Origin: Trichloromonas sp.
GTDB taxonomy: Bacteria; Desulfobacterota; Desulfuromonadia; Desulfuromonadales; Trichloromonadaceae
Assembly (NCBI RefSeq): GCF_034006665.1
Contig: NZ_JAVESI010000016.1
Coordinates: forward strand, 329-64,328
Direction: 5' to 3'
Length of the DNA stretch: 64,000 nucleotides
Below, one piece after another: positions 8,936 through 39,388 of this stretch. The notes under the pieces are model-generated. The model saw only the letters and a program-made list of their open reading frames with translations. It made no database searches and had not been told where the DNA came from. Position 1 is the stretch's first letter. Each line of letters opens with the position of its first letter. The translations under genes and the position numbers were made by a program.

Positions 8936-8936
8936 G

Positions 8937-10546: not shown

Positions 10547-12220
10547 ATGAAAAATTTCTTCAAGCAGTGGCGCCCTTATCTGGTTTATGGGGCCCTGTTC
10601 AGCATGTTTATTAACATTTTGCAACTGACATTCCCTATTTACATGCTGCAGATTTATGACCGGGTATTGTCCAGCTATAGCTTGCCCACTTTGTATGCCA
10701 TTACAGTTGCTGCTGTTGTCTCTTTGGTGGTTATGGCGGCTCTCGAATTTGTTCGTTCGCGACTTTTAGTTCGGTGCGGTGTTGCCATCGATCAAGTTTT
10801 GAGCAGGGATGTTCTGGAAAGTGTTTTAAAAGAGGCTGCTTTGACAGGGGCCTCGCCTAATCAGGCGACTTTGAGGGATGTTAATTTATTGCGGAATTTT
10901 TTCGGCGGGAACGCTATTTTTACCCTGTTTGATATTCCGTGGACGCCTCTCTTTCTTACGGTTATTTACATCCTCCATCCTTTGTTGGGGCTGGTAGCTA
11001 CTGGTGGGGCGGTTCTTCTGGTTGTTTTCGCGCTGATCAATGAGAAGGTAACTCGCAAACCGCTGGATGCCGCTAATACCGTGAGCGGATTTTCCATGAA
11101 ATTTGTCGAAGCGGCGCGCCGAAATGCTCAAACTGTCCATAGCATGGGGATGGTCAATGGCGTGGCCTCCCGCTGGTCGGGTTTCAACGATACCGTCACC
11201 AAACTCCAGACACAGGCCAGCAGACAGGCTGGTTTGGTTCAGTCGCTTTCGAGCTGGTTACGCCAATCCATGCAGGTTTTTATATACGGCGTGGGGGCTT
11301 GGCTGACACTCAATGGCGAGGCTACGGCGGGCTGTATGATCGCAGCATCCATCATCATGGGGAAGGCCCTCGCTCCCGTGCAGTTAGGGATTGGTTCCTG
11401 GAAAAGCATGGTGGAAGCCCGTGGTGCCTGGCGTCGCTTGGATGCCCTGTTCAGCCAAGTCAAGTCGGTGGAAGGAATGGATTTGCCCGAGCCAAAAGGA
11501 CAACTTGCCGCCGAGCATGTCAGTTTCGCCATTCAGGGAAACTTTATTCTTCGCGACATCAACTTTTCCTTGGAGCCAGGGGAGTCTCTTGGCCTGATTG
11601 GTCCTTCGGGAGCGGGTAAGTCGACGCTATGTCGGCTTTTGTTGGGAATCTGGCCGCCAAGTGGGGGGAAGGTACGTTTGGATGGAGCGGATATTTTCAG
11701 TTGGCAACAGGAGAAGTTAGGGCCGTATCTGGGATATTTGTCTCAGGATATTGAGTTGTTTAGCGGCACGGTGGCCGAAAACATCGCCCGCTTGGGCGAG
11801 GTGGATTCAGAAAAAGTCATTGCCGCCGCCAAGCAGGCTGGGGTGCATGATCTTATATTGAATCTGCCAAAAGGGTACGATACCCGAATTGGTGAAGGTG
11901 GTCAGGTTTTGTCCGGTGGTCAGCGCCAACGGATCGGGTTGGCACGCGCCCTGTACAAACAGCCGCGACTTGTCATTCTGGATGAGCCGAACTCGAATCT
12001 CGATGAAGAAGGGGAAGCGGCCCTTGTTCGCTCTTTTTCCGAACTTAAAAAACAAGGGACGACACTGGTAATTGTTTCTCATAAGCCGGCATTGCTTGCT
12101 GGTGTCGATAAGGTTCTGATGCTTAAAAATGGTCAACTGGCTCTTTTTGGGCCACGTAATGCGGTTTTTTCTAAGTTAATGGAAAGCCAAGGCCAAGGGC
12201 GGCAGCAGGTGGCAGGGTAA
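10547..12220 (+). CDS. Type I secretion system ABC permease/ATPase, PrtD/RsaD type (no C39 peptidase domain)
   Basis: 557 aa. N-terminal six-TM region. Walker A GPSGAGKST, signature LSGGQRQRIGLARAL, Walker B LVILDEP. Confidence 0.85.
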   Translation: MKNFFKQWRPYLVYGALFSMFINILQLTFPIYMLQIYDRVLSSYSLPTLYAITVAAVVSLVVMAALEFVRSRLLVRCGVAIDQVLSRDVLESVLKEAALTGASPNQATLRDVNLLRNFFGGNAIFTLFDIPWTPLFLTVIYILHPLLGLVATGGAVLLVVFALINEKVTRKPLDAANTVSGFSMKFVEAARRNAQTVHSMGMVNGVASRWSGFNDTVTKLQTQASRQAGLVQSLSSWLRQSMQVFIYGVGAWLTLNGEATAGCMIAASIIMGKALAPVQLGIGSWKSMVEARGAWRRLDALFSQVKSVEGMDLPEPKGQLAAEHVSFAIQGNFILRDINFSLEPGESLGLIGPSGAGKSTLCRLLLGIWPPSGGKVRLDGADIFSWQQEKLGPYLGYLSQDIELFSGTVAENIARLGEVDSEKVIAAAKQAGVHDLILNLPKGYDTRIGEGGQVLSGGQRQRIGLARALYKQPRLVILDEPNSNLDEEGEAALVRSFSELKKQGTTLVIVSHKPALLAGVDKVLMLKNGQLALFGPRNAVFSKLMESQGQGRQQVAG

Positions 12221-12316
12221 GGGAAAAAATATCCTAAGAGCTTTTAGCTGAATGATGATAGTTGCTTAGGCTCTCCCCAACGAAGTTCTTCCCTAATCTA
12301 TCACGAAAGTAAGTGG

Positions 12317-13747
12317 ATGACCGATAACGATCGAAAAGCTGTTCTGGACCAAGAAAAAAAAGTGGGATTCTGGAATAGAATACTGCGTCGAAAACGTATC
12401 AGTGACGAGGACTATGTACGGATAGAAGATGAAACTACGGCTCCCCCTGATTTGCCTATCCATTATACCGACAGTCGCCGAATCATTTTTTCCGGTCTTT
12501 TGATTGTCGGAGTGTTTTTCGGGTTGGGCGGATTATGGATCAGTCTGGCGGAAATTAGCGGTGCTGTCATTGCCAATGGTGAAGTAAGGGTCGATACCGA
12601 ACGGAAAACGGTGCAGCATCTGGAAGGGGGGATTGTTCGGGAGATTTTGGTGCGTAATGGTGACGTGGTTGACGCTGGGCAGCCCTTGATCATTTTGGAC
12701 AGTTCTCGCGTAGTCGCAGCAACTGATCAATTGCGTTTGCAGATTATGGCCACACGCCTGGATGAAGCTCGGCTTCAGGCGGAAAAAGAATTGTCTGCTG
12801 CGGTTTCTTGGCCCGCTGCGATTGAGGGGGTTTCAAAAGAGCAATACGACGATCTTCTGGATAGCGTTAAAAAGGTATTCAGCAGCGGTCGTCAGGCTTT
12901 AGTTACCCAGACGGATCTGCTAAGGAAACAGATCGACCAGTTGACTGAACAGGATCGCAGTCTGGCGGCTCGCCAACAGGCGGAGGAGCAGATTATTGCG
13001 ACCCTGCAAGAAGAACTGGATGCCAAAATGGTGCTCTTTGAGGAACAATATATTGACAAGACTCGCATCTTGGAACTTCGGCGGGCGATTGCTGAACATC
13101 AGGGGTTGAAGGCCCAGTTGCAGGGGAGCCAGGCCGAACTACGCGAAAAAGTTGCCGAGTTTCAGTTGCGCATCAGTGGTCTGGAAACGGAATACCGTCA
13201 AAAAGCCAGCGCCCAACAATCAGAAGTGCAGCAGCGGTTTTTTGATTTGCAACAGCAGTTAATGCCGTTGGTCGATGCCAGGGAACGGTTGTCGGTCACT
13301 GCACCTGTCGCTGGTGAAGTCGTTGCACTCCAGGTTCATTCACGCGGCGGTGTCATCAGCCCCGGTCAGCCGCTGCTGGATATCGTTCCTAAGGACAGTC
13401 CGCTAATTGTCGAGTGCCAGATTATGGTGAAGGATATCACGCATCTCTATAAAGGGCAGCCGGCCGATGTGCAACTTCTTGCTTTCAATCAGCGGACAAC
13501 GCCTAAAGTTGAAGGTAAGGTCGTCTATATATCAGCGGATCGGCTTTTGCAAAAAACACCTTATGGCGAACAGCCTGCATATATCGTACATATTGAACTC
13601 GATAAGCAGCAGCTTTATGACAATGATCTCTACCTGACGGCGGGAATGCCTGCCGCTGTCTTTATCCGGACCGAACCTAGGACGGTATTAGATTACGTTA
13701 TTGAGCCCCTGAAAGAAAATTTTGATCGGGCACTCCGGGAAAATTGA
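12317..13747 (+). CDS. HlyD-family type I secretion periplasmic adaptor (membrane fusion protein)
   Basis: Single N-terminal TM, GGIVREILVRNGDVVDAGQPLIILD lipoyl-like motif, long coiled coil, C-terminal beta domain. Confidence 0.85.
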   Translation: MTDNDRKAVLDQEKKVGFWNRILRRKRISDEDYVRIEDETTAPPDLPIHYTDSRRIIFSGLLIVGVFFGLGGLWISLAEISGAVIANGEVRVDTERKTVQHLEGGIVREILVRNGDVVDAGQPLIILDSSRVVAATDQLRLQIMATRLDEARLQAEKELSAAVSWPAAIEGVSKEQYDDLLDSVKKVFSSGRQALVTQTDLLRKQIDQLTEQDRSLAARQQAEEQIIATLQEELDAKMVLFEEQYIDKTRILELRRAIAEHQGLKAQLQGSQAELREKVAEFQLRISGLETEYRQKASAQQSEVQQRFFDLQQQLMPLVDARERLSVTAPVAGEVVALQVHSRGGVISPGQPLLDIVPKDSPLIVECQIMVKDITHLYKGQPADVQLLAFNQRTTPKVEGKVVYISADRLLQKTPYGEQPAYIVHIELDKQQLYDNDLYLTAGMPAAVFIRTEPRTVLDYVIEPLKENFDRALREN

Positions 13748-13760
13748 GAGAAGTTGGATA

Positions 13761-15071
13761 ATGGTAAAAAAGTCGATTATTTTTCTGCTTGGTTTCATGT
13801 TTCTAGTCCAAGAACCCTCCTGGTCATCCAGTTCGATGGAAACCATGACATTGGAAGATTGTATCCGTTATGGTTTGGACCACAACCCCGAAGTGAAGGC
13901 TTATACCTTAGCCGTTGATGAAGCGAAGTTAGGAGTCAGTGAAGCCAAAGGCGCCTTTTTCCCAACTTTAACCTTGGGTTATAACTATAATCAGTTGTCC
14001 AGCGGCAACAGTAATGATCGAGATACCGATTATCTTGACCAGAACAGCGACAGCTACTCCGTTCGTCTCAGCCAGCCCCTCTTTGCCGGTTTTTCCAGCG
14101 TGGCCGGACTTAACCGAGCTCGTCAATCTCGCGCGTACCGAGAAGCGGAACTCGTTTACATGCGTCAGCAGCTGGTAAAGGAAGTTCGCACCAGTTTTTA
14201 TAATTATATACAATCAAATCAACGTGCTCATGAGTGGCAAGCTTCTGTTGAGCGACTTGAGCGTCAGAAAGACATTGCCGCAGCTTGGGTCAAACAGCAG
14301 TTGGCCCCCCGTTTACGCTTGCTTGAAACTGAAGTCGAATTGTCCAATGCTCGTCATCAGCTAATTCGGGCACAATCCGAAGAGCGAATTGCTGCCGCAC
14401 AGCTTCGTCAATGGCTGGCCTTGGAAGCCGATGCCCCTTTGAATCTAAGCGGTGCTTTTGATGAAAGTCTCACGATACCTTGTATCGATCTGCCTCAGTG
14501 TCTCTCCTTGGGGTTGGAACGCCGTCCCGACTTGCAGTTGGCAAAGCTTAATATCGACATGGCCCGTGAAGATGCCCGTGTCATTCTGGCTCGCAATCTT
14601 CCCCAGGTACAACTGGAGGGGGGATATACGGATTATCAACGCGATTATGACGACAGTCGTTATGGAGAAGATAAACGCGATTATTTCAGTGTGACCCTGA
14701 ATCTGAGCATGAAACCTTTTCAGGGGGGACGTAATATTGCCGCCTGGCGAAAACAGCGCATCGCCGTCAATCGTTATGAACAACAGCTGAATGCGGCTCG
14801 CCTGCAAGTCACGAGTGATGTGGAAACCCGTTTTCAGCAACTCGATGAAGCCCGGGCGCGAATTGCCAATGCTCACGATACGATCAAAGAAGCCCGGGCC
14901 GCCTACGAAGTTGCCAGCCGTTCCGCCGAATTGGGTGTGGTCTCCCTGGATGATCTCCTCAACGCTGAGTTGCGCCTGACCCGCGCCGAAATCAACCTGA
15001 TCGATTCCCGCGCCGCTGAAGCTTTGGCCCGCGTTGCCCTCGACTATGCGATTGGGGTACCCACTCCGTAA
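13761..15071 (+). CDS. TolC-family outer-membrane channel
   Basis: Signal peptide MVKKSIIFLLGFMFL. Duplicated OEP repeats (PTLTLGYNYNQ..., LEGGYTDYQRDY...). Confidence 0.8.
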   Translation: MVKKSIIFLLGFMFLVQEPSWSSSSMETMTLEDCIRYGLDHNPEVKAYTLAVDEAKLGVSEAKGAFFPTLTLGYNYNQLSSGNSNDRDTDYLDQNSDSYSVRLSQPLFAGFSSVAGLNRARQSRAYREAELVYMRQQLVKEVRTSFYNYIQSNQRAHEWQASVERLERQKDIAAAWVKQQLAPRLRLLETEVELSNARHQLIRAQSEERIAAAQLRQWLALEADAPLNLSGAFDESLTIPCIDLPQCLSLGLERRPDLQLAKLNIDMAREDARVILARNLPQVQLEGGYTDYQRDYDDSRYGEDKRDYFSVTLNLSMKPFQGGRNIAAWRKQRIAVNRYEQQLNAARLQVTSDVETRFQQLDEARARIANAHDTIKEARAAYEVASRSAELGVVSLDDLLNAELRLTRAEINLIDSRAAEALARVALDYAIGVPTP

Positions 15072-15095: not shown

Positions 15096-15917
15096 ATGCA
15101 GCACTTTTCCATCCACCCTGGGCAGATCTCCAGAAGTTTCTGGCGTCATCGACAGCTTATTTTCAGCCTAATCCGCCAGGAGGTGCTGGTACGCTACCGC
15201 GGTTCCATTCTTGGGCTGCTCTGGTCCTTCTTTAACCCGGTGTTCATGTTACTGGTCTATACCTTCGTTTTCAGTGTGGTGTTCCAGGCACGTTGGGATC
15301 AGTCCATCGGTGGCTCGAAGGCTGAGTTTGCCCTGGTTTTGTTTGTTGGTCTGTTGCTGTTCAATCTGCTGGCGGAATGTTTTACCCGGGCTCCTTCTCT
15401 GATTCTGCAGAATCCCTCCTATGTCAAACGGGTCGTCTTCCCCCTGGAGGTTTTGCCTCTGGTTGCATTCGGTTCGGCTCTGTTTCATGCCGGCATCAGT
15501 CTGCTGGTGTTGCTGTTGTTTTCCTGTTTCGTTTTCGGCCTGCCGCCGATGACCGCTTTTCTTTTCCCCCTGTTGTTGCTGCCTCTGGCTGCCATCGCTC
15601 TGGCGGGGGGCTGGCTGCTCAGCTCGTTGGGAGTCTATCTGCGAGATGTCGCTCAGGTGGTGGGCTTGTTGGTGGCTGCCTGGATGTTTCTGACGCCGAT
15701 TTTTTATCCTGTCAGCATTATTCCGGCGGAATACCAGGTTTGGATGCATCTTAATCCTCTAAGTTTTTTGGTGGATCAGGCACGAGGTCTGCTTTTGTTC
15801 GGGCGCGTTCTTGACTGGTTCAGTTTTTTCTGGCTCACACTGGCGAGCTATGCCCTTGCTTGGCTTGCTTTTGTCTGGTTCCAGAAAACACGTCGAGGAT
15901 TCGCTGATGTCCTTTAG
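15096..15917 (+). CDS. wzm: O-antigen/polysaccharide ABC-2 transporter permease
   Basis: About 270 aa, six hydrophobic segments, RYRGSILGLLWSFFNPVFMLLVY signature of ABC-2 exporters. Confidence 0.8.
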   Translation: MQHFSIHPGQISRSFWRHRQLIFSLIRQEVLVRYRGSILGLLWSFFNPVFMLLVYTFVFSVVFQARWDQSIGGSKAEFALVLFVGLLLFNLLAECFTRAPSLILQNPSYVKRVVFPLEVLPLVAFGSALFHAGISLLVLLLFSCFVFGLPPMTAFLFPLLLLPLAAIALAGGWLLSSLGVYLRDVAQVVGLLVAAWMFLTPIFYPVSIIPAEYQVWMHLNPLSFLVDQARGLLLFGRVLDWFSFFWLTLASYALAWLAFVWFQKTRRGFADVL

Positions 15918-17148: not shown

Positions 17149-17153
17149 CTCCG

Positions 17154-18038: not shown

Positions 18039-18039
18039 T

Positions 18040-18633
18040 ATGCATCATAGTTCTTATCGACACATGGAGCGCCTGCTTGATCAGCATGCAGCCAAGTATG
18101 TATCGGCAAGCATCTTTGATCTGGGCAGCTTTGACGTGAACGGCAGCTACCGACCGCTGTTTGATCGTCCAGGCTGGGTCTATCGGGGAATTGATCTCGA
18201 AGCCGGACCCAATGTCGATATTGTTCTGCGTGATGCGTACCGGTTACCCCTACCGGTTGATTCCGCCGATATTTTCCTTTCAGGTCAGGCATTCGAGCAT
18301 ATCCCATACTTCTGGATTACCTTTCTGGAAGTCGCCCGCGTTTTGAAGCCGGGGGGTCTCTTTTTCCTCATCGCCCCTTCGCGTGGTCCTGAGCACCGTT
18401 ATCCCGTCGATTGTTGGCGTTTTTATCCCGATGGTTACCAAGCCCTGGCGCGTTATGCTGGTCTGGAGGTTGTCGAGGCGCAGACCGACTGGCAACCTGA
18501 TTCCGCCCCCGACAGTGCGCCTTGGGGCGATACGGTCGGCGTGTTCCGGAAGCCACAACAAGCCTTTTGGCACAGGGCTCTTATGCGGTTACGTTGTCGT
18601 TGCCATCGTTTCGGGTTGCCTCCTTTTGCCTGA
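18040..18633 (+). CDS. Class I SAM-dependent methyltransferase (Methyltransf_11-like)
   Basis: IFDLGSFDVNG...ADIFLSGQAFEHIP...LKPGGLFFLIAP. The ATG overlaps the upstream stop (TGATATG). Confidence 0.7.
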   Translation: MHHSSYRHMERLLDQHAAKYVSASIFDLGSFDVNGSYRPLFDRPGWVYRGIDLEAGPNVDIVLRDAYRLPLPVDSADIFLSGQAFEHIPYFWITFLEVARVLKPGGLFFLIAPSRGPEHRYPVDCWRFYPDGYQALARYAGLEVVEAQTDWQPDSAPDSAPWGDTVGVFRKPQQAFWHRALMRLRCRCHRFGLPPFA

Positions 18634-26954: not shown

Positions 26955-26960
26955 TTGCCC

Positions 26961-31717: not shown

Positions 31718-34700
31718 ATGGTAACTCCAGAACAGCAAAATGAAATCTATCTCTACACCGTTGGTTTGTTCAAGGCTGCCCCTGGTGCCTACTATGAAGG
31801 CCTGGTGGGTTTCGTCGAGAGCGGCTACAGCACCCAGGACATGGCCCTGGCTCTGGCCAATTCGCCTGTCTTCAACGGTCTGTACAACACCGATTCCGAC
31901 GACGCATTCGTTTCGGCGTTTCTGAACAATCTGGTTGGTGACACCCTCGATGCCGCGACCATGCAGGCTGCCGTTGCCGGCATGAACAGCCTGGTCGCCG
32001 ACCAGGGCCGGGCCCAGGCCGCCGTCGCCATTATTGACCTGCTGGCCGACCAGAGCCCTTCCGATCCCACCTTCGGCGAGGCCCGTCAGTTGCTGCAGGG
32101 CCGTGTGGATGCCGCCAAAGGTTACCAGGCTTTCCCCGGTGCTAAAGGCCTCTCCGCCAATATCGCTACCCTCCAGAACGTTGTCGAGGCAACCGATACC
32201 GCCCAGTACCTGACCGATGGCATCGATAATCTGCTTGGTGGTATCGGCAACGATCTGTTCCAGGCTTACATCTACGACAACAGCAACAGCCTTGAGTCCG
32301 GTGACATCATCAACGGCGGCGCCGGCACCGACGTCCTGCGCGCTGAAGTGGGTTCTTCGCAGGACTTCGCCATCTCGGCCAAGACCGTTTCCGTTGAGAA
32401 CATGTTCTTCACCGCCCAGAACCTGGCGTGGGACAATGCCGACAACACCATCGGTGATCGTCTTGGCTTCGACACCACCATCGATGCCGGTGAGTTCGCC
32501 GGTGTGCGCCAGCTGTGGTCCGACGACAGCCGCGCCAGCCTGGTCATCGAAGACGTCAGCGAAGACAGCCACCTCACCACCATCGGTATGCGTGATACCG
32601 ATTCGGCGGTTAACTACGAAGTTTACTTCGATCAGCAGAATGTGACCGACATCGGTTCCCAGGAGTCCGGCGGCTCGTTGATTCTGACCATCGCCGACCT
32701 CGATCGCATGGATCAGGGCCTGTCGCCGTTGAGCGATGCCTTCCCTTACGATATCCTCACCGTCCACTTCGAAGGCGTTTCCTATGAGCTGGACATCGAT
32801 TACACCGACGTAGAAGACCATGACGACCTGGTTGCCGCCATCAATAACGCTCTGGCCGCCGACGGCGTGACCCAGTTCGAGGCCGTCAAGCAGGGCAGCG
32901 TCAACGTTGTTCACCCCGATACCAGCAATCCTCTCGTTGTCGATCAGGTCGTTATCCAGAAGGTTGATGCGACCATGGAAGGCAATTTCGACGCCGCCAT
33001 GTCGACCTGGGACAACTCCGGCATCATCCCCGGCGACACCGCTTACCTCACCCGCGTTCAGGACGAGCAGGCTGTTGCCCAGCCGTCCCTGACTCAGGTA
33101 GATGTCGTCGTTGATAACGTCGGCCGCGGTTGCGTTGGTGGCGATCTGGTGATCGGCGCTATGGCCGAGTGCCTTGGCATCGAGCAGTTCAATGTGCAGG
33201 TCGATCGTGACAGCTGGCTGAGCACTCTGCGTTCGAACAACGAACTGTCTCATGGCGCTCTTGAAGTCGTTAACGTCGTCAACATCAGCGAGAACGATGC
33301 CGAAGGCAACGGCAATCTGCGTATCGACGCCCTGAACGACGTCCGCGTTTTCGATGCTTCCGAGATGGCCGGTAATGTCACCCTTACCGCAACTCTCAGC
33401 AATGAAATTGTCGCCAAGTACTTCAGCCTGACGGACAGCCATCAGGACAATACCCAGGACGACAGCGACCCCGTCGACTACCTGGATGTTGTGGACACCT
33501 ATTTCAGCTACGATTTCGGTGCCGGCAGCGACAGCCTCAACCTGACCCTCAGCGCCGATAATTTCCAAGATGCCGGCAGCGCGGCTTTCGAAGATTTCCA
33601 GCTTGAAGTCAACGGTAACGACGGCAATGACCGTCTCACGGTCCGTTTCGACGACGCCACTGCCAACGATGCCGACTTCTGGTACTTCAATCAGTCCGTC
33701 AACCAGGCCAACAACAGCTCCATCGTCATCAACGGCGGCGCCGGTAACGACACCATCAGCACCCCGGGCGCCGGCAACATGACCATCAACGCCGGCAGCG
33801 GCAACGATGTGGTCTTCTCCGACAATACCGGCGCCAAGGCCCAGTGGGTCATCAACGCCGCCAACCTCGATCTTAACGACCTCGACGGTAACGGTCCCGG
33901 CGCCACGGGTCTGCTCTACGGTGCGCAACTCACCCTGACCTTCGCCGCCGCCAACCTGACCTTGCCTGCCGGCATGACCCAGCCGAATGCCGATGCCTAC
34001 GATGTCGGTTTCGAGTCGACCGTACGGGTTACCACCAACGATCTGGGCAACCAGGCCACCGTCAACCAGGCCATCAAGAACGCCATCAATAACGATGCCG
34101 TTCTGAGCAAACTCCTCCTGGCTGAAGACGGCCCGGAAAACACCCTGGTGATCACTTCCAAGATCGATGGTCAGTTCTCCAGCAACGATATCCTTATCGA
34201 TGTGGAAGCGATCGATCTGGCAGACCAGTCCACGGCTACCCAGGATGACCTGCAGGACGCTTACGAACTGCTCATGCGTGATTCCGATGCCGTGCTGACC
34301 CAGGCTATTCTTGACGGCTATGCCAATGCCTACGACGGCAACATCGCCACTCTGGCCGTGCAGGGCAGCGACAGCGTTTACACCAGCGACAACCGCATCA
34401 ATGTGGGTTCCGGCGATGACCTGGTGGTTCTCGGCACCGGCGCTAACAGCAACGACACCCTGGTCTTCACCGGGACCGATCTGGGCAAGGTAACGGTCGT
34501 CAATTTCGATGACGCCGTCGGCTCCGCTTCGATGGATTCCCTCAACTTCGGCAGCTACCTGATCGGTAAGACCTCGGCGTCCGAGAGCGTCAGCTCCGAG
34601 CGCGGCATCGCCGACACCTACGACTTCCTCAATGTTTCCGGGGTAGGTGGTACCGCGGGTGCCGATGAGATCATCGTCATCAACGATTTCGCCGCCGTAG

Positions 34701-35368
34701 CAGGCGAAACCTGGGCGACCATGACCGCTTCCGACTTCCTGACCGCTATTCAGGATGAGGCGGGGACCGAGATCGGCTACGGCAACATCGACAGCAATGA
34801 TATCGATGTGGCTGCCGCTCCGGCCAATTATGTCGGCGATACCATGCACCACGTCTTCATGGTAGAGAATGACCTGAATGCCGGTGAGTACAAGGCCTTC
34901 TACGTCACCTCCGAAATCGATGCCGACGGCAACGAGTTCAATAGCGCCAGCCTGATCAGCATTATCGACTTCGGCGCCAGCTTCGACCTCGCTGACGATG
35001 GCGGCGCCGGTCCTGGGCCGGTCCAGGTCGATCAGGTCGTAGCCGACCTGATCACTTACGATGCCAGCACCGACGATTTCAATTTCATCCTTGATTTCGC
35101 TGCTGCGGGCGTCAAACTGGCCAATATCAATGGCTTCGACGACGGCGACACCGTGACCCTGCTCAACGCTCCGGCCGGTTCCGCAGTTGACTTCGATAGC
35201 GGCGCTGCCGACTCCATCGATTTCGTTGCCGGTGATTTGGTTGGTTTCACCAACGCCTGGGCCGTCACCTTCGGCGCTCAGGATCCTGTCGAAGTGGCCG
35301 ATTTTGTCGCCGCCGCCGATGAGTTTGCCGCGACTCAGGCCATTTGGGGTGACTGGCTGGTCGCCTAG
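31718..35368 (+). CDS. Large acidic RTX-like secreted protein, candidate T1SS substrate / S-layer protein 1
   Basis: 1216 aa, no signal peptide, very few K/R. GGxGxD-type repeats (INGGAGTDVL, INGGAGNDTI, AGSGNDVV, VGSGDDLV). DUF4214-like helical N-terminus. Confidence 0.7.
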   Translation: MVTPEQQNEIYLYTVGLFKAAPGAYYEGLVGFVESGYSTQDMALALANSPVFNGLYNTDSDDAFVSAFLNNLVGDTLDAATMQAAVAGMNSLVADQGRAQAAVAIIDLLADQSPSDPTFGEARQLLQGRVDAAKGYQAFPGAKGLSANIATLQNVVEATDTAQYLTDGIDNLLGGIGNDLFQAYIYDNSNSLESGDIINGGAGTDVLRAEVGSSQDFAISAKTVSVENMFFTAQNLAWDNADNTIGDRLGFDTTIDAGEFAGVRQLWSDDSRASLVIEDVSEDSHLTTIGMRDTDSAVNYEVYFDQQNVTDIGSQESGGSLILTIADLDRMDQGLSPLSDAFPYDILTVHFEGVSYELDIDYTDVEDHDDLVAAINNALAADGVTQFEAVKQGSVNVVHPDTSNPLVVDQVVIQKVDATMEGNFDAAMSTWDNSGIIPGDTAYLTRVQDEQAVAQPSLTQVDVVVDNVGRGCVGGDLVIGAMAECLGIEQFNVQVDRDSWLSTLRSNNELSHGALEVVNVVNISENDAEGNGNLRIDALNDVRVFDASEMAGNVTLTATLSNEIVAKYFSLTDSHQDNTQDDSDPVDYLDVVDTYFSYDFGAGSDSLNLTLSADNFQDAGSAAFEDFQLEVNGNDGNDRLTVRFDDATANDADFWYFNQSVNQANNSSIVINGGAGNDTISTPGAGNMTINAGSGNDVVFSDNTGAKAQWVINAANLDLNDLDGNGPGATGLLYGAQLTLTFAAANLTLPAGMTQPNADAYDVGFESTVRVTTNDLGNQATVNQAIKNAINNDAVLSKLLLAEDGPENTLVITSKIDGQFSSNDILIDVEAIDLADQSTATQDDLQDAYELLMRDSDAVLTQAILDGYANAYDGNIATLAVQGSDSVYTSDNRINVGSGDDLVVLGTGANSNDTLVFTGTDLGKVTVVNFDDAVGSASMDSLNFGSYLIGKTSASESVSSERGIADTYDFLNVSGVGGTAGADEIIVINDFAAVAGETWATMTASDFLTAIQDEAGTEIGYGNIDSNDIDVAAAPANYVGDTMHHVFMVENDLNAGEYKAFYVTSEIDADGNEFNSASLISIIDFGASFDLADDGGAGPGPVQVDQVVADLITYDASTDDFNFILDFAAAGVKLANINGFDDGDTVTLLNAPAGSAVDFDSGAADSIDFVAGDLVGFTNAWAVTFGAQDPVEVADFVAAADEFAATQAIWGDWLVA

Positions 35369-35415: not shown

Positions 35416-35443
35416 AGAGCGGGCAGGTTCGCCTGCCCGCTCT
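35416..35443 (+). other. Perfect 12-bp stem with TTCG loop between the two large genes
   Basis: AGAGCGGGCAGG-TTCG-CCTGCCCGCTCT. No U-tract follows. Confidence 0.8.
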
Positions 35444-35474: not shown

Positions 35475-38400
35475 ATGGCAGTAGTCACAGGCACTAACCT
35501 GCTTCAAGAGATTCTCGACGCTCAGGGGATTACGCTTTCGCCGTTGATGGAAGCTGCTCTTGCTGCTCGTCTGCAGCAGGCGATCGACGCCGGAACCGAC
35601 AGCAATTTTCAGATTGCCGCCGTTCTGGCCAGTAACCCGACTATCAATGCTTCCGTCCCCGAAGGGGAAGTCCCGCTCACCTTTATCGCCGATGTCGTAG
35701 GGGATGCCAAAACGACGATCATCGACGAGCCGGTTGAGCCGATTGAAACTACCTATACCATTACCTCCGACGTCGACTCGGTGGACGAAGGCGGTACCGT
35801 CACCTTCACCGTAACGGCGGATGAAGCCGTTGTCGAAGATACCGAAGTGGCCTATACCCTCAGCGGCGTCGACGCCGCCGATGTGGATGGCGAGCTGACC
35901 GGTACGGTGACGATTCTGGCCGGTGAAACCGCCGCCACTTTTGCCGTCACTCTGCTCGAAGATGCGGCTACTGAAGGGGATGAAACCCTGACCGCGACCC
36001 TGGAAGACGGCGCTGCCGCCGATGTGGCCGTGGCCGACACCAGCATGGCCCCTGCCCAGGTTCTGAGCATCGAACCGGCATCGACGACGATCGTCGAGGG
36101 CAATGAGCTCGTCTTCACCGTGACGATGGACCGCGCGGTTGACGAAGATACCGTCATCCGCTATCAGGTTCAGGGCGTTGCCACCGACATCGCCGCTGCC
36201 GCTACGCCGGTTGACGACCTGGGCGTCATCAATGGTGAGGTGCTCATCGCGGCTGATGGCGATAACCCGATGATCGGTACTTTTTCGATCACCCCTTCAT
36301 CCGACGGCGTAACCGAAGGTTTTGAAGCCTTCAAGGTTGTGCTGCTCAATGACGACAATACCGCCGGCTTGTCTACGGCCAATATCGTCATTACCGATCC
36401 CGCCAATGCCGGCCAGTCCTTCACGCTCACTACAAGTGTGGATGATTTCACCGGTGGCGCCGGCGATGATACCTTCACGGCGACCGACACAACCCTGACC
36501 GCGCTGGACGCCCTCGATGGGGGTGATGGAGCGGATGTTCTGAAATATACCGACGTTGCAGGGGGCAAGGGCATTCCTGGAGGTGTTTCCATCAGCAACA
36601 TTGAAACGATCACGGTGCGCTCTTCAGGCGCTGCCACCATCGACTTGGCTGCTGCGGCAGGTGTGACGGGCGTGTCAACACTGAAATCGACTCAGTCTGC
36701 TGCAGCCACCCTGACCGCTGCCGACACCACCGACATCGTTGTCTCGGGCGCTACCGGCGCCATCACGATCAACGGTGGTAACAACGTTCAGGTTGCCGAC
36801 GCGACTGCAGACATGGCGATTAAAGTTGGCGCGGCTACCGCTAACGCCGGTACCATCACCGTGACCGACAGCAATCAGGGCACCGGTACGATCGACGTCG
36901 ACGGCGGCACGGATGTATCCGTTACCGCGACCACCAACGCTACGGCAGCAGTGGTCGGCGGCACCGTTAAGATCGGTGTTGTCACCCCCGCCACCGGCAC
37001 CGTAACGCTGGAACAAAACCTGAACCACAACGGCGAAGGCGGCAATCTTGCCGGCGGCGCGATCACGGTCGTCGGTGGCACCAGCGTTGATGTCACTGTC
37101 AACGCGACCAGCACCGCCAAGAACGACGACTCCGACAACGACATCGCCATCGGTGCTGTGGACGTGACCGGCGACGGTACGACCTCCGAAGTGACCGTGA
37201 CGCAGAATGCCACCACGACCGTTGTCACCACGGCCGCTGTGCCGGCGATTGCAGAAACTGACACGGTTACTTTCAAATCTATGGCCGCAGGCGATACCCT
37301 GACCACGGCCGGCAGCGGCACCCTGGTTTTTAAGGCTGTTGCTGCTATGACGGCTGAAGAAGTTGCAGCAGCCTTCACCAACCTGATCAACTCTGACACC
37401 CAATCTGCTGGCGGACCCACTGCTAAAGGCTACTTCACTGGAGCTTTCTCGCCGGTCTGGTCCAGCGCTGAAGCCTCCGGGGCCTCGGTGATCTTCACTG
37501 CCAATAGTGACGCTGAGACCAACGTTACCTGGACCCACAGTGTCGTCGCCAACAACCCGACGATCGTCAATACCCCCGGCACGGCCGCCGTTGCCGGTGA
37601 CGCTTCCACCAACGCCGTGACCTACGGCGCAGTGACGATTGCCGATGACGCGACCGCCGCCATCAAGACCGTCACGGTCGATGGCTATGCGACGGCCTCG
37701 GCTATCAACGGCACCACCGTTCTGGATACTCTGAACCTGTCTAACGCCGCTGCTACGGTTGCCATGACCGTGGCCGACACCGCCGATACTTTGGCGTTGA
37801 ACCTTTCGGCCATGGGCAAAACCGGCGATGGCAATGAAGCCGTTCTGACCTTCACCGCCGCCCCGCTGACCCTGAATGTCACTAGCACGGGCGATAACTA
37901 CGTCGACCTGACCGCCGCCGCGACCAAGACCCTCAATGTCTCCGGTACCGGCCTGCTGGATGTCGCCGACATCGACTTGGCCGCTTTGCAGACCGTCAAA
38001 GTCAGCGGTACGGCCGGCCTGTCGTTGTACGCAGGCGTCGCTGATACCGTGACTTCGGTAGACACTACCGGCACAACTGGCACCGTCACCGCCAGCATTC
38101 AAGGCGATAAGGCCACCTACGCCGGCGGCGCCGGTGTCGACAACGTCACCGTCACCAACGCCGACACGGCCATCAGCAAGGCACTCGATCTGGGTGCAAG
38201 CAACGACACCCTGACCCTGGTCGGCGCCACCGTGGCCGTGCCCACCGTCGTCCTCAAAGGCGGCGATGGCACCGACACCTTGTCGATCGACACGGCCAGC
38301 GCAGCGGCTCTCGATGGCGCAACAACGTTCGCCGCTCAACTCGATAGCTTCGAGCACCTGTTCATCAATGATGCGGGAATAGGTGGCGAAAATATTCTCC

Positions 38401-39305
38401 TTGATAATCTCGGCTTCACTCAACTGGTCTCCGTGGCCGGCTCTGGCGCTACCCTGACCCTGAGCAACCTGGCCAACAACGGCACCGTAAACGTGGTAGC
38501 CGCTCCCACAACCGGCCTGACCGTGGTAGTCAAAGATGCCGATACCGGTATCGCTGACGTATTGAACGTCGGTCTGAGTGCCGATACAGGCGTACTGACC
38601 GCCGCTAACGTTGAAACCGTCAACCTGACGGTGGACGCCGATGTGACCGCTACCCTGACCGCCGACAAGGCCACCACGGTGACCCTGGCCGGCGATAGCG
38701 ATCTGGTCCTGACTGACCTGAAAGCGGACGGTAGCACTCTGGTCGAACTGGTGGACGGCTCGGCCGGCTACTCGGGAGATCTCACCATGACGGCTGATCT
38801 GGCTGACTTGGTGGTAAAAGGCGGTTCGGGTGACGACTTCCTGATCGCAGACGCTAACGACGTCGCCCTGTATGGTGGCGACGGCGATGACATCCTGGTA
38901 GTGGATAGCGGTCTGCGTGTAAACCTCTACGGTGGTGAGGGCGCAGATACTTTTGAAATCAATGGAAGCCTCACTCTGGATGCTTACGCTGTCATCAACG
39001 GCGTCACTTCCGGCGACGTCATCCAGATGAACGGTGCAAACACCTTCATGAGCAGCAAGATCGCTCTTAGCGTCGGTGCCGACGAAACCCTGCTCAACTA
39101 CGCCAACCAGGCGGTCGATACGCTTGCTGAAGGTGAAATGGGCTGGTTCCAGCGCGGTGGCAACACTTTCATCGTTCAGGACGTCCTTGGTACTGATAGC
39201 ACCGAATTTATTGCCGGCGAAGACATGATCATCATGCTTACCGGTCTGGTAGACCTCGGTGCGGTTGCGTCGTACAACACCAATAACAGCCTGGAAATCG
39301 CCTAA
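35475..39305 (+). CDS. Large acidic Calx-beta/RTX protein, candidate T1SS substrate / S-layer protein 2
   Basis: 1276 aa, no signal peptide. Two Calx-beta-like modules, a long T/A/G/V-rich beta-helix-like region, and three canonical nonapeptides KGGSGDDFLI, YGGDGDDILV, YGGEGADTFE near the C-terminus. Confidence 0.75.
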   Translation: MAVVTGTNLLQEILDAQGITLSPLMEAALAARLQQAIDAGTDSNFQIAAVLASNPTINASVPEGEVPLTFIADVVGDAKTTIIDEPVEPIETTYTITSDVDSVDEGGTVTFTVTADEAVVEDTEVAYTLSGVDAADVDGELTGTVTILAGETAATFAVTLLEDAATEGDETLTATLEDGAAADVAVADTSMAPAQVLSIEPASTTIVEGNELVFTVTMDRAVDEDTVIRYQVQGVATDIAAAATPVDDLGVINGEVLIAADGDNPMIGTFSITPSSDGVTEGFEAFKVVLLNDDNTAGLSTANIVITDPANAGQSFTLTTSVDDFTGGAGDDTFTATDTTLTALDALDGGDGADVLKYTDVAGGKGIPGGVSISNIETITVRSSGAATIDLAAAAGVTGVSTLKSTQSAAATLTAADTTDIVVSGATGAITINGGNNVQVADATADMAIKVGAATANAGTITVTDSNQGTGTIDVDGGTDVSVTATTNATAAVVGGTVKIGVVTPATGTVTLEQNLNHNGEGGNLAGGAITVVGGTSVDVTVNATSTAKNDDSDNDIAIGAVDVTGDGTTSEVTVTQNATTTVVTTAAVPAIAETDTVTFKSMAAGDTLTTAGSGTLVFKAVAAMTAEEVAAAFTNLINSDTQSAGGPTAKGYFTGAFSPVWSSAEASGASVIFTANSDAETNVTWTHSVVANNPTIVNTPGTAAVAGDASTNAVTYGAVTIADDATAAIKTVTVDGYATASAINGTTVLDTLNLSNAAATVAMTVADTADTLALNLSAMGKTGDGNEAVLTFTAAPLTLNVTSTGDNYVDLTAAATKTLNVSGTGLLDVADIDLAALQTVKVSGTAGLSLYAGVADTVTSVDTTGTTGTVTASIQGDKATYAGGAGVDNVTVTNADTAISKALDLGASNDTLTLVGATVAVPTVVLKGGDGTDTLSIDTASAAALDGATTFAAQLDSFEHLFINDAGIGGENILLDNLGFTQLVSVAGSGATLTLSNLANNGTVNVVAAPTTGLTVVVKDADTGIADVLNVGLSADTGVLTAANVETVNLTVDADVTATLTADKATTVTLAGDSDLVLTDLKADGSTLVELVDGSAGYSGDLTMTADLADLVVKGGSGDDFLIADANDVALYGGDGDDILVVDSGLRVNLYGGEGADTFEINGSLTLDAYAVINGVTSGDVIQMNGANTFMSSKIALSVGADETLLNYANQAVDTLAEGEMGWFQRGGNTFIVQDVLGTDSTEFIAGEDMIIMLTGLVDLGAVASYNTNNSLEIA

Positions 39306-39350
39306 CCCCCTAACCCCACAATCCACCGTGGGCTAGCGTAACACCCAAAC

Positions 39351-39388
39351 ACCCCCGTCCTTCGCAAGAGGGGCGGGGGTATTTTTTT
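39351..39388 (+). terminator. Rho-independent terminator
   Basis: CCCCCGTCC...GGGGCGGGGG stem followed by T8. Confidence 0.85.

What the first reader, a model, noticed from the sequence alone, without database searches (positions are those of the whole stretch)
10547..39388. Candidate RsaA-style S-layer system: dedicated T1SS, capped O-antigen pathway and two giant RTX/Calx-beta proteins in one block
Seen in the sequence:
- A PrtD-type ABC exporter without a C39 domain, a HlyD adaptor and TolC (10547-15071).
- These are followed by an ABC-transporter-dependent O-polysaccharide pathway: wzm, wzt with an extra C-terminal domain, three methyltransferase modules and a 1518-aa polymerase-like protein.
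- About 7 kb further on lie two tandem genes for very acidic 1216- and 1276-aa proteins. Both lack signal peptides.
- Both carry GGxGxD nonapeptides: KGGSGDDFLI / YGGDGDDILV / YGGEGADTFE near 38815-38960, and INGGAGNDTI...AGSGNDVV near 33720-33830.
- The second protein also has two Calx-beta-like modules (about 35750-36330).

Established: Caulobacter RsaA is exported by the RsaD/E/F T1SS. It is anchored through its N-terminal domain to the O-antigen, whose genes are linked to rsaA.

Inference: this block encodes an analogous secreted surface layer together with its LPS anchor. The N-terminus of protein 1 (EIYLYTVGLFKAAPGAYYEGLVGFVESGYSTQDMALALANSPVF) looks like a helical anchor module. I am not aware of a characterised T1SS-type S-layer in Geobacter-like bacteria.
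Basis: partly seen in the sequence, partly recalled or inferred. Interest (0 to 1): 0.75.

Follow-up and report, generated by a model that had tools for sequence, protein, structure and literature searches.

The report
Two-protein RsaA-type surface layer locus
A Trichloromonas (Geobacter-relative) genome carries a secretion system, an O-antigen pathway and two giant acidic proteins, one a true homologue of the Caulobacter S-layer protein RsaA. The two proteins form a gene pair conserved in distant bacteria, and they appear to be joined by a previously undescribed pair of small modules.

Summary
A PrtD-type T1SS (ABC, HlyD, TolC) runs straight into wzm/wzt, three methyltransferase modules and a 1518-aa glycosyltransferase. 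About 7 kb further on lie two tandem genes for acidic proteins (pI ~4) without signal peptides.

- Protein 2 is a real RsaA homologue: E 1.6e-26 to PDB RsaA, and 1e-105 for its family profile.
- Protein 1 belongs to a different, unnamed family. It shares with RsaA-type proteins only a DUF4214-like helical N-terminal module and the junction motif.
- Protein-1-family genes in 32 species are repeatedly linked to wzm/wzt (14 loci) and to a PrtD/HlyD T1SS (8 loci).

New here: protein 1 carries a ~110-aa C-terminal extension (CTE), and protein 2 an ~80-aa N-terminal module (NTD2).
- The two modules co-occur as adjacent genes in every locus where both sides are visible, about six independent lineages.
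- They are fused in one chain in six proteins.
- NTD2 also sits on secreted proteases and on lipase-like and CAP-domain proteins.

I infer an O-antigen-anchored base protein (P1) carrying an RsaA-type lattice protein (P2) through CTE::NTD2. Lattice formation, export and binding are untested.

A third RTX gene downstream is truncated by mobile DNA.

The parts
1442..10366 (+). LPS sugar-precursor genes upstream of the finding. They are hldE (1442-2941), a gmhB-like HAD phosphatase (3778-4395), a UDP-glucose/GDP-mannose dehydrogenase family gene (5478-6794), and rmlB (6968-8029), rmlD (8030-8935), rmlA (8922-9821) and rmlC (9818-10366).
   Evidence: Pfam matches (PfkB+CTP_transf_like; GDP_Man_Dehyd/Epimerase; RmlD_sub_bind; NTP_transferase; dTDP_sugar_isom). 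A dTDP-rhamnose pathway fits the RgpF 'rhamnan synthesis' domain of the 1518-aa glycosyltransferase.
10547..12220 (+). T1SS ABC exporter, PrtD/RsaD type, with no C39 domain.
   Evidence: TIGR01842, 679.5 bits (cut-off 510), profile positions 3-544 of 544. Pfam ABC_membrane and ABC_tran.
12317..13747 (+). T1SS periplasmic adaptor (HlyD family).
   Evidence: TIGR01843, 336 bits (cut-off 208). Pfam HlyD_3 and HlyD_D23.
13722..15071 (+). TolC-like outer-membrane factor.
   Evidence: Pfam OEP, 214.9 bits, two stretches. TIGR01844 scores 160.6 bits, below its cut-off of 225.
15096..17148 (+). wzm (15096-15917) and wzt (15811-17148, with an extra C-terminal domain at residues ~285-445). wzm starts 24 nt after the TolC gene.
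   Evidence: Pfam ABC2_membrane and ABC_tran. Wzt_C scores 27.4 bits, below the gathering score of 30.4. The Wzt C-domain is conserved at 28-35% identity in 7 loci and at 24% in an eighth (L012); 5-7 of these 8 loci have a P1-type N-terminal module.
17139..24436 (+). O-polysaccharide modification and polymerisation genes. They are a 299-aa ORF with weak acyltransferase similarity (17139-18038), a methyltransferase (17704-18633, overlapping ORF call), a methyltransferase (18880-19815, GC3 0.30) and a 1518-aa Methyltransf_24+RgpF+WbsX protein (19880-24436).
24598..30351 (+). Intervening regulatory and outer-membrane module: a periplasmic binding protein (24598-25536), a HAMP histidine kinase (25533-26954), a sigma-54-dependent response regulator (26955-28367) and a Plug-domain outer-membrane protein (28330-30351).
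   Evidence: Pfam. The same order is found in the 95%-identical relative L001. It is not conserved in distant loci.
30440..30542 (+). Candidate enhancer sites (TGGTTGAATCAAACCA and TGGTTGGATTCAACCA, 30440-30475) and a sigma-54-type -24/-12 promoter (TGGCATGGACATTGC, 30528-30542), 68 nt upstream of the CAP gene.
   Evidence: The number of matches window-wide is not above chance (6 found against 5.6 expected). Only the position, just downstream of a sigma-54 activator gene, is suggestive.
30610..31533 (+). Acidic secreted CAP-domain protein with a Sec signal peptide.
   Evidence: Pfam CAP. The sequence shows a signal peptide ending ...AVPAHA/ED. Elsewhere a CAP domain is fused to NTD2 and CTE (P0298).
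31718..35368 (+). P1, 1216 aa. Helical DUF4214-like N-terminal module at residues 1-160 (31718-32197). RsaA-type junction at residues ~161-241 (32198-32440). Family-specific body to residue ~1090, with isolated GGxGxD motifs. GPGP linker, then the C-terminal extension CTE at residues ~1105-1216 (35030-35365).
35416..35443 (+). Perfect 12-bp hairpin (AGAGCGGGCAGG-TTCG-CCTGCCCGCTCT) between P1 and P2, with no T-run after it.
   Evidence: Read directly from the sequence. No terminator is called between the genes. This fits co-transcription with an internal RNA structure.
35475..39305 (+). P2, 1276 aa. NTD2 at residues 1-82 (35475-35720). Two Calx-beta-fold sandwiches at residues 94-187 and 196-307 (35754-36395). 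Junction at residues ~313-383. RsaA-homologous body and C-terminus at residues ~291-488 and 700-1263. Three GGxGxD motifs at residues 1113-1160 (38811-38954).
39351..39390 (+). Strong intrinsic terminator after P2 (13-bp stem, 9 GC pairs, T-run).
39494..39823 (+). 5' remnant (about 100 codons) of a third exported-protein gene. In the near relative L001 this gene encodes a 1006-aa RTX repeat protein. Homology ends at window position 39789.
   Evidence: HemolysinCabind E 2.6e-8 in the intact L001 copy.
39790..64000 (.). Mobile-element mosaic that interrupts the locus. It contains toxin-antitoxin pairs (40273-40924; 41173-41771), a Y1-transposase-like ORF (41738-42814), integrases (43117-44277; 51909-53297), a MerR-like repeat protein (44635-46002), a PolA-like gene, VWA/AAA/DUF3150 genes and a YhgA-like transposase (61852-63114).
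   Evidence: There is no tRNA gene in the window.

Best explanation
The block encodes a T1SS-exported, O-antigen-anchored cell-surface layer built from a conserved pair of proteins.

Shown by homology or direct reading:
- The PrtD/HlyD/TolC genes are contiguous with an ABC-transporter-dependent O-polysaccharide pathway that is probably rhamnose-based and methylated.
- P2 is an RsaA-family protein. It has the lattice-forming C-terminal domain, the Ca-binding motifs and the C-terminal secretion region.
- P1 shares with RsaA-type proteins the N-terminal helical (DUF4214-like) module and the junction motif, but has a different body.

Inferred:
- Both proteins leave the cell C-terminus first through the linked T1SS.
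- P1 binds the O-polysaccharide through its N-terminal module, as the RsaA N-terminal domain does and as reported for the DUF4214 protein Psh of P. putida.
- P2 has no such anchor. It is held on P1 by an interaction between its N-terminal 80-aa module (NTD2) and the ~110-aa C-terminal extension of P1 (CTE). Its two Calx-beta sandwiches act as a spacer.
- The anchor and the lattice, which RsaA combines in one chain, are therefore split over two chains. Alternatively the cell carries a double layer, with P1 inside and P2 outside.
- The same NTD2 module would let other T1SS-secreted proteins (M10 proteases, lipase-like and CAP-domain proteins) dock on the layer.
For: 1. P2 is an RsaA homologue: E 1.6e-26 for the single sequence and 1e-105 for the family profile, covering RsaA ~250-1020. 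Many family members are named 'S-layer protein' by JGI. RsaA-like proteins with an upstream T1SS have been shown by deletion to form the S-layer of methanotrophs (PMC11784148).

2. The P1 N-terminal module plus junction matches the N-terminus of RsaA-type proteins (hhalign 98.8%, E 1.2e-16).
- The P1-family profile hits RsaA residues 116-321 at E 5.5e-9.
- The best Foldseek PDB match of the P1 1-330 model is RsaA bound to O-antigen, 6z7p.
- 7 of 18 homologous N-terminal modules weakly hit DUF4214.
- The same module is found on RsaA-type bodies, which indicates domain shuffling.

3. Synteny in 32 P1-family loci from GTDB species: wzm/wzt lie within 10 kb in 14 loci and PrtD-type ABC plus HlyD in 8, while several other loci are short contigs.
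- The window-type Wzt C-domain is found in 8 loci.
- 5-7 of these 8 have a P1-type N-terminal module, against 0 of 6 loci that match the Wzt ATPase domain only.

4. Coupling of CTE and NTD2:
- A CTE-bearing P1-like gene lies directly upstream of an NTD2-bearing RsaA-like gene in the window/L001, L034, L036 (Marinomonas gallaica), L037, L038, L039, L040 and L042.
- None of the 32 CTE-less P1 loci has an NTD2 or RsaA-like neighbour.
- CTE is 58-65% identical where the P1 bodies are 25-32% identical.
- Six proteins fuse NTD2 and CTE in one chain, for example P0235 (209 aa) and P0298 (CAP+NTD2+CTE).
- The identity matrices of the two modules correlate (r = 0.93) and show the same two subtypes.

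5. NTD2 is rare: 100 cluster representatives among 1.84 billion proteins. It occurs on M10/serralysin proteases and on PepSY, PPC, Lcl_C and CAP proteins, mostly T1SS-type substrates. Within L036 it occurs four times.

6. Features that fit an abundant secreted structural protein:
- pI 4.05 and 0-2 cysteines.
- The strongest codon bias among the native genes of the window (Nc 35 and 40 against 43-55).
- Strong Shine-Dalgarno sites.
- A strong terminator after P2.

7. Precedent for a T1SS-secreted DUF4214 protein that binds O-antigen: the Psh preprint 10.64898/2026.09.02.748959.
Against: - There is no experimental evidence for expression, export, surface location or lattice formation in this organism, which is known only as a metagenome-assembled contig.
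- A profile of the P1 N-terminal module alone finds no PDB sequence match. The Foldseek match to RsaA has a low TM-score (0.28) and is partly driven by the junction. O-antigen binding therefore rests on analogy.
- The CTE::NTD2 interaction was never modelled or measured.
  - Co-occurrence and correlated divergence could reflect co-inheritance of an operon.
  - CTE is always at the extreme C-terminus and ends in D-W-L-hydrophobic, like PrtD-type secretion signals. It could be mainly a secretion domain.
  - In L041 a stand-alone CTE ORF is followed by a gene that shares only the first ~13 residues of NTD2.
- The T1SS lies 20 kb from P1/P2, with an unrelated regulatory module in between.
- TolC is below its NCBIfam cut-off and Wzt_C is below Pfam's gathering score.
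Confidence: 0.55

Rival explanations
1. P1 and P2 are two independent surface proteins. Each is exported by the T1SS and each is anchored on LPS by its own N-terminal module, with NTD2 being just another LPS- or O-antigen-binding anchor that replaces DUF4214. CTE is only a specialised C-terminal T1SS secretion domain. The gene pair is conserved because it travels as an operon, for example as alternative or condition-specific coats.
For: - NTD2 occupies the position before the junction that DUF4214 occupies in most RsaA-type proteins.
- DUF4214 is likewise found on M10 peptidases (L035) and binds O-antigen in Psh.
- CTE is always C-terminal and ends in an acidic residue followed by hydrophobic residues, as PrtD-type signals do.
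- The fused NTD2-CTE mini-proteins could simply be NTD2 plus a secretion signal.
Against: - P1-family proteins without CTE are also linked to PrtD-type T1SS genes, so CTE is not needed for export.
- P2 and the other NTD2 proteins use different C-termini.
- CTE was never seen without NTD2 in the same chain or the next gene wherever this could be checked. It is far better conserved than the P1 body.
Confidence: 0.25
2. P1 and P2 are not a crystalline S-layer. They are T1SS-secreted surface-associated proteins of another kind: an O-antigen-binding protective coat like Psh, or Ca-dependent biofilm or matrix adhesins.
For: - They are large, acidic, Ca-motif-bearing T1SS substrates with Calx-beta modules, which is also typical of adhesins.
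- Psh shows that a T1SS-secreted O-antigen binder need not be a lattice.
- Nothing in the sequence proves a lattice.
Against: - P2 is homologous to the whole lattice-forming domain of RsaA, not just to its RTX motifs.
- RsaA-like homologues form S-layers in methanotrophs.
- There is no LapA-type retention module, no LapG/LapD and no long tandem Ig arrays.
- The proteins are ~1200 aa, typical of S-layer proteins rather than of giant adhesins.
Confidence: 0.15
3. The locus is decaying or mis-assembled in this genome and does not function as a unit.
For: - The third gene is truncated at 39789 and followed by 24 kb of mobile DNA.
- The source is a metagenome contig.
- The ORF calls at 17139-18633 overlap.
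Against: - P1, P2, the T1SS genes and the O-antigen genes are intact long ORFs.
- P1 and P2 are 98% and 91% identical to intact copies in an independent assembly, with the same gene order.
Confidence: 0.04

Closest known systems
Caulobacter crescentus RsaA with RsaD/RsaE/RsaF and the linked O-antigen genes (PDB 5n8p, 6p5t, 6z7p)
   Same: - P2 is homologous to RsaA residues ~250-1020, including the Ca-binding motifs and the C-terminal secretion region.
- Neither protein has a signal peptide.
- A PrtD-type ABC, a HlyD adaptor and a TolC-like protein are linked.
- O-polysaccharide genes lie in the same block.
- The junction motif LTxGxDxxxG..NDxF...GGxGxDxL is shared by P1, P2 and RsaA.
   Different: - P2 lacks the RsaA N-terminal O-antigen-binding domain. 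It has NTD2 plus two Calx-beta sandwiches instead.
- The anchor-like helical module sits on a second, non-homologous protein (P1).
- The O-antigen is probably rhamnose-based, not N-acetylperosamine/mannose.
- The T1SS genes are fused to the wzm/wzt operon rather than lying next to the S-layer gene.
Methanotroph 'hauberk' S-layer proteins MEALZ_0971/0972 and EQU24_15540 (PMC11784148)
   Same: - They are RsaA-like proteins with homology only to the RsaA C-terminal domain.
- All three T1SS genes lie nearby.
- An adjacent accessory gene shares the operon. The authors suggest a 'complex anchoring machinery'.
   Different: - The partner there is a small protein, not a 1216-aa protein.
- No NTD2 or CTE modules are described.
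- I could not compare the sequences.
Pseudomonas putida Psh (PP_1794), an RTX-DUF4214 protein (bioRxiv 10.64898/2026.09.02.748959)
   Same: - It is a T1SS-secreted protein encoded next to O-antigen genes.
- It is reported to bind the O-antigen.
- Its DUF4214/phycobilisome-linker-like helical domain is taken to be the glycan-binding part.
- The P1 N-terminal module is a remote DUF4214 relative.
   Different: - Psh is small, and its DUF4214 domain is C-terminal.
- It has no RsaA-like lattice domain.
- It is described as a phage shield, not an S-layer.
Cohesin-dockerin and SLH-type display systems of Gram-positive bacteria
   Same: The resemblance is by analogy only. A small module (NTD2) is shared by a structural protein and by diverse secreted enzymes, and it is paired with a receptor module (CTE) on a cell-anchored scaffold protein.
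   Different: - There is no sequence or fold relationship: the NTD2 profile has no PDB hit.
- The setting is Gram-negative with T1SS export.
- The interaction is not demonstrated.

Membership tests
RsaA-family S-layer protein (P2) | Sequence homology to the lattice-forming C-terminal domain of RsaA (residues ~250-1026) | tested here: met
   phmmer against PDB gives E 1.6e-26. P2 291-488 aligns to RsaA ~250-470, and P2 700-1263 to RsaA 441-1015. The family profile scores E 1e-105.
RsaA-family S-layer protein (P2) | No N-terminal signal peptide, and a C-terminal T1SS signal region with GGxGxD Ca-binding motifs before it | tested here: met
   The N-terminus is MAVVTGTNLLQE... with no hydrophobic leader. 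Three GGxGxD motifs lie at residues 1113-1160. The C-terminal ~100 residues align to the RsaA C-terminus.
RsaA-family S-layer protein (P2) | N-terminal O-antigen-binding domain (RsaA residues 1-249) | tested here: not met
   P2 residues 1-310 are NTD2 plus two Calx-beta-fold sandwiches. They have no RsaA N-terminal domain match by sequence or by fold.
RsaA-family S-layer protein (P2) | Forms a 2D lattice on the cell and is a major cell protein | not testable with these tools
   The only support is indirect: codon bias (Nc 40), a strong Shine-Dalgarno site and a strong terminator.
RsaA-family S-layer protein (P1) | Homology to the RsaA lattice domain | tested here: not met
   BLASTP of P1 against P2 finds nothing. 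The P1-family profile matches RsaA only at residues 116-321. hhalign against the P2 family aligns only P1 residues 1-241.
DUF4214 (PF13946) / phycobilisome-linker-like helical module (P1 residues 1-160) | Match to the Pfam model or to the fold | tested here: inconclusive
   - P1 itself has no Pfam hit.
- 7 of 18 homologous N-terminal modules hit DUF4214 weakly, best E 3.6e-4.
- Foldseek matches are RsaA, then PBS-linker domains at E 0.05-0.5.
- hhalign to the DUF4214-type N-termini of RsaA-like proteins gives 98.8%.
RTX proteins (HemolysinCabind PF00353) | Tandem nonapeptide GGxGxDxUx repeats reaching the Pfam threshold | tested here: not met
   P1 scores E 0.012 (16 bits) and P2 E 0.27 (11.7 bits), against a gathering score of 23. 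The P2-family profile does hit serralysin beta-roll regions at E 3e-12, so a short RTX-type beta-roll is likely.
Calx-beta domain (PF03160) | Pfam match or Calx-beta fold | tested here: inconclusive
   There is no Pfam hit. The AlphaFold model of P2 residues 94-307 (pLDDT >90) has NCX1/CALX CBD12 among its top Foldseek matches, E 4e-10 to 1e-7. Generic Ig-like sandwiches also score well.
Type I secretion system, PrtD/AprD/RsaD class | ABC exporter without C39/CLD, a HlyD-family adaptor and a TolC-family outer-membrane factor, encoded together | tested here: met
   TIGR01842 scores 679.5 (cut-off 510) and TIGR01843 scores 336 (cut-off 208). Pfam OEP scores 214.9, although TIGR01844 at 160.6 is below its cut-off of 225.
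ABC-transporter-dependent O-polysaccharide pathway with chain-end recognition | Wzm, a Wzt with a C-terminal carbohydrate-binding domain, a terminating modification enzyme and polymerising glycosyltransferases | tested here: inconclusive
   Wzm and the Wzt ATPase domain are clear. Wzt_C scores 27.4 bits, below the gathering score of 30.4. Three methyltransferase modules and a multidomain glycosyltransferase are present. That the methyltransferases cap the chain is an inference.
LapA-type giant RTX adhesins | N-terminal retention module, LapG/LapD control and long tandem Ig-like repeat arrays | tested here: not met
   P1 and P2 have no NCBIfam or Pfam hit. Pfam scans of the ORFs at 272-39305 and of selected ORFs downstream gave no match pointing to LapG or LapD. 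The proteins are ~1200 aa.
Slr4 S-layer family (Pseudoalteromonas tunicata) | A ~59-kDa protein with a cleaved Sec signal peptide | tested here: not met
   Slr4 is 59 kDa with an N-terminal signal peptide (PMC7821379). P1 and P2 are ~125-130 kDa and have none.

The most novel reading that the evidence does not exclude
CTE and NTD2 are a new, rare receptor/docking pair for T1SS substrates in Gram-negative bacteria.
- An O-antigen-anchored base protein (P1) presents CTE.
- An RsaA-type lattice protein and assorted exoenzymes (M10 proteases, lipase-like and CAP-domain proteins) plug into it through NTD2.
- The result would be a two-tier, modular surface layer, functionally like cohesin-dockerin display but unrelated to it in sequence, here in a Geobacter relative that respires extracellularly.
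Probability: 0.35. Interest if true: 0.8.

Novelty: new variant of a known kind. Interest (0 to 1): 0.6.

Why it matters
- S-layers of Gram-negative bacteria are understood in atomic detail for essentially one protein, RsaA, in which one chain both binds O-antigen and forms the lattice. This locus indicates a recurring alternative in which these tasks are split between two secreted proteins joined by a dedicated module pair. The same module is used to display enzymes.
- If this is confirmed, it gives:
  - a second architecture for anchoring T1SS S-layers;
  - a function for an unnamed family of ~1100-1300-aa proteins (108 hits in the homologue search) that is tightly linked to wzm/wzt and T1SS genes;
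  - a small portable tag (NTD2, ~80 aa) for surface display.
- It would also be the first S-layer candidate in Desulfuromonadia. In these bacteria an outer protein coat would have to coexist with extracellular electron transfer.

Tried and rejected
1. Slr4 of marine Gammaproteobacteria as the identity of the P1 family. Rejected: Slr4 is 59 kDa and has a signal peptide.
2. P1 and P2 as paralogues. Rejected by BLASTP and hhalign, which align only the first ~240 residues.
3. Direct sequence homology between the P1 N-terminal module and the RsaA N-terminal domain. A profile of the N-terminal module alone finds nothing in PDB. Only the fold-level match and the indirect link through the junction remain.
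4. PDB relatives of NTD2. None were found.
5. The rest of the truncated third gene elsewhere in the window. It is absent.
6. A tRNA integration site for the mobile DNA. No tRNA gene is present.
7. Sigma-54 promoter sites as a window-wide signal. They are not enriched (6 found against 5.6 expected). Only the site at 30528 is well placed.
8. Broad alignments as queries for locus searches. These failed for lack of conserved stretches. The metagenome scan with NTD2 returned only one 1-kb contig.
9. The search with the CTE profile returned only contig-edge fragments. One look-up had no DNA.
10. Literature on S-layers in Desulfuromonas, Geobacter or Trichloromonas, and on a Marinomonas S-layer. Nothing relevant was found.

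Full report
**Source and gene map**

P2 is 100% identical to an NCBI protein named 'beta strand repeat-containing protein [Trichloromonas sp.]' on a 64,625-bp contig. Trichloromonas belongs to the Desulfuromonadales. All genes from 272 to 39823 are on the + strand.
- Upstream of the finding lie hldE, a gmhB-like phosphatase, a sugar dehydrogenase and rmlB-D-A-C.
- Next comes the T1SS: a PrtD-type ABC exporter, a HlyD adaptor and TolC.
- 24 nt after TolC come wzm, then wzt with an extra C-terminal domain, a 299-aa ORF, two methyltransferases and a 1518-aa Methyltransf_24+RgpF+WbsX protein.
- A binding-protein / histidine-kinase / sigma-54-regulator / Plug-protein module and a secreted CAP-domain protein follow.
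- Then come P1 (31718-35368) and P2 (35475-39305).
The RTX and Calx-beta labels are only motif-level and fold-level.

**What P2 is**

- P2 has no Pfam or NCBIfam hit.
- phmmer against PDB sequences finds Caulobacter RsaA at E 1.6e-26. The alignments cover RsaA ~250-470 and 441-1015 and include the C-terminal WFQ.GG.T..V.D......F..G.D.....TGLV region.
- A 13-sequence family profile scores E 1e-105.
- The family is large and spread over many Proteobacteria, and JGI often names its members 'S-layer protein'. Most members begin with DUF4214.
- P2 does not. An AlphaFold model (pLDDT 83) shows short helices at residues 1-77 and two beta-sandwiches at 94-187 and 196-307. The best PDB matches of the sandwiches are the Calx-beta tandem CBD12 of NCX1/CALX.
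- RsaA-like proteins with an upstream T1SS have been shown by deletion to form the S-layer of methanotrophs (PMC11784148). This part is therefore a new member of a known kind.

**What P1 is**

- P1 belongs to a separate family of ~1100-1300-aa proteins (108 hits). The family occurs in Neptunomonas, Marinomonas, Amphritea, Thiomicrospira, Sulfurimonas, Aliarcobacter, Azonexus, Massilia, Desulfobulbaceae, Desulfovibrio and a Geobacterales MAG. Its members are all unnamed.
- It shows no BLASTP similarity to P2.
- The P1-family profile matches RsaA only at residues 116-321 (E 5.5e-9), mostly at the junction motif.
- hhalign between the P1 and P2 families gives 98.8% probability (E 1.2e-16) over P1 residues 1-241 only. 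That span is the helical N-terminal module plus the junction.
- AlphaFold predicts helices at residues 1-157 followed by beta structure (pLDDT 83).
- The best Foldseek PDB match is the RsaA/O-antigen composite model 6z7p (E 7.4e-4, low TM-score), followed by phycobilisome-linker domains.
- A profile of the N-terminal module alone has no PDB sequence hit. 7 of 18 homologous modules weakly hit DUF4214.
- The same module also occurs on RsaA-type bodies. It therefore behaves as a shuffled N-terminal anchor module.

**Linkage to secretion and O-antigen**

- In 32 P1-family loci from GTDB species (up to 10 kb of flank on each side, less where the contig ends), wzm/wzt are present in 14 and PrtD-type ABC plus HlyD in 8. 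Many of the remaining loci are short contigs.
- The window-type Wzt C-terminal domain occurs in 8 loci (28-35% identity in 7 of them, 24% in L012). 5-7 of these 8 have the P1-type N-terminal module. None of 6 loci that match only the Wzt ATPase domain has it.
- The uncorrected Fisher p for this association is about 0.002-0.03 (my arithmetic), and the loci are phylogenetically non-independent.
- This pattern fits the anchor module and the Wzt carbohydrate-binding domain recognising the same glycan. A recent preprint reports that a T1SS-secreted DUF4214 protein of P. putida binds O-antigen.

**The conserved pair and its two modules**

P2's first ~82 residues (NTD2, starting MA.vTGtNLL...) are shared by a subset of RsaA-like proteins.
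- Every one of these whose upstream DNA could be read has a P1-like gene directly upstream. The loci are L034, L036 (Marinomonas gallaica), L037, L038, L039 and L040.
- These P1-like proteins differ in their N-terminal modules and are only 25-32% identical in the body.
- All of them end in a homologous ~110-aa extension (CTE) after a low-complexity linker. CTE is 58-65% identical within its subtype.
- None of the 32 ordinary P1 loci has CTE, NTD2 or an RsaA-like neighbour.
- In L042 a stand-alone 136-aa CTE ORF precedes an NTD2 RsaA-like gene.
- Six proteins contain NTD2 followed by CTE in one chain, including the 209-aa P0235 and the CAP-domain protein P0298.
- The pairwise identity matrices of CTE and NTD2 correlate (r = 0.93) and show the same two subtypes.

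NTD2 is rare, with 100 representatives at E ≤ 1e-3 among 1.84 billion proteins, mostly at residues 1-81.
- It also occurs on M10/serralysin proteases and on PepSY+Big_5, PPC, Lcl_C and CAP proteins.
- It occurs four times within the Marinomonas locus.
- The C-termini of many of these proteins look like T1SS signals.

**Interpretation**

- The Rosetta-stone fusions, the strict adjacency and the strong conservation point to a physical CTE::NTD2 interaction. That interaction would tether the RsaA-type protein, and other NTD2 proteins, to the O-antigen-anchored P1.
- The main alternative is that CTE is a secretion domain and NTD2 is another LPS anchor.
  - CTE-less P1 proteins are also T1SS-linked.
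  - NTD2 proteins use other C-termini.
  - These points argue against the alternative but do not exclude it.
- Nothing here demonstrates a lattice.

**Expression hints**

- P1 and P2 have the strongest codon bias among the native genes of the window (Nc 35.4 and 40.1 against 43-55).
- Both have strong Shine-Dalgarno sites.
- A perfect hairpin without a T-run lies between the two genes.
- A strong terminator follows P2.
- A well-formed sigma-54 promoter with two upstream palindromes precedes the CAP gene, just downstream of a sigma-54 activator gene.

**State of the locus**

- A 95%-identical assembly (L001) has the same gene order plus a third gene for a 1006-aa RTX repeat protein after P2.
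- In the window only its first ~100 codons remain (39494-39823). Homology ends at 39789 and 24 kb of mobile DNA follows.

**Verdict**

- The RsaA-like component is a new member of a known family in a lineage with no described S-layer.
- The P1/P2 pair with its CTE and NTD2 modules appears to be an undescribed variant that can be tested directly.

Noticed in passing
window 39494-39823 (homology to L001 ends at 39789): A third exported-protein gene, encoding a 1006-aa RTX repeat protein in the near relative L001, is cut off after ~100 codons. Unrelated mobile DNA follows. The rest of the gene is not in the window.
   Followed up: yes
window 41738-42814 and 43117-44277; L036 15442-16422; L039 5155-5889; L034 14306-15286: A 358-aa Y1-transposase-like ORF and a P4-type integrase lie downstream of P2. 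Homologues at ~44% identity occupy the same position after the P2-like gene in distant genomes: the Y1-like ORF in Marinomonas L036 and in L039, and the integrase in L034. The 3' flank of the pair may be a recurrent integration site, or the pair may travel with these genes.
   Followed up: partly
window 30440-30542: A sigma-54-type promoter (TGGCATGGACATTGC) lies 68 nt upstream of the CAP-domain gene. Two near-palindromic repeats (TGGTTGAATCAAACCA and TGGTTGGATTCAACCA) lie ~55-90 nt further upstream. The whole element is immediately downstream of a sigma-54 response-regulator operon.
   Followed up: partly
window 30610-31533; protein P0298: The window encodes a Sec-secreted acidic CAP-domain protein just upstream of P1. 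In another organism a CAP domain is fused to NTD2 and CTE in one 926-aa protein. CAP proteins may therefore be regular passengers of this system.
   Followed up: partly
L036 (Marinomonas gallaica CP187511) 20451-24041: NTD2-like modules occur in three further proteins next to the P1/P2-like pair: at the N-terminus of an M10 peptidase, near the C-terminus of a lipase-like protein, and near the C-terminus of a 'choice-of-anchor L' protein.
   Followed up: partly
window 17139-18633: Two ORF calls in different frames overlap by 335 nt (17139-18038 and 17704-18633). The methyltransferase domain lies only in the last third of the second ORF. Either the true start is later or there is a frameshift.
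   Followed up: no
window 18000-20000: G+C content dips to 0.44, and the methyltransferase gene at 18880-19815 has a GC3 of 0.30, against 0.5-0.75 for its neighbours. This piece of the O-antigen cluster looks recently acquired.
   Followed up: no
window 44635-46002: A MerR-type HTH protein carries a long run of 4-residue repeats (DPLT/DPPT/DPLA/DGLA). A MerR-like gene also follows the integrase in L034.
   Followed up: no
window 2938-5282: Small nucleotidyltransferase-domain ORFs (2938-3282, 4498-4803), a 160-aa ORF with no Pfam match (4800-5282) and a '23S rRNA intervening sequence protein' gene (3415-3762) are interspersed among the LPS core sugar genes.
   Followed up: no
L041 208-2421; L043 1562-2053: CTE also occurs as a stand-alone small ORF and as a partial tandem duplication (L043). 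In L041 it is followed by an RTX/beta-propeller-like protein whose first 13 residues (MANISGNLLNNLL) resemble the start of NTD2.
   Followed up: partly
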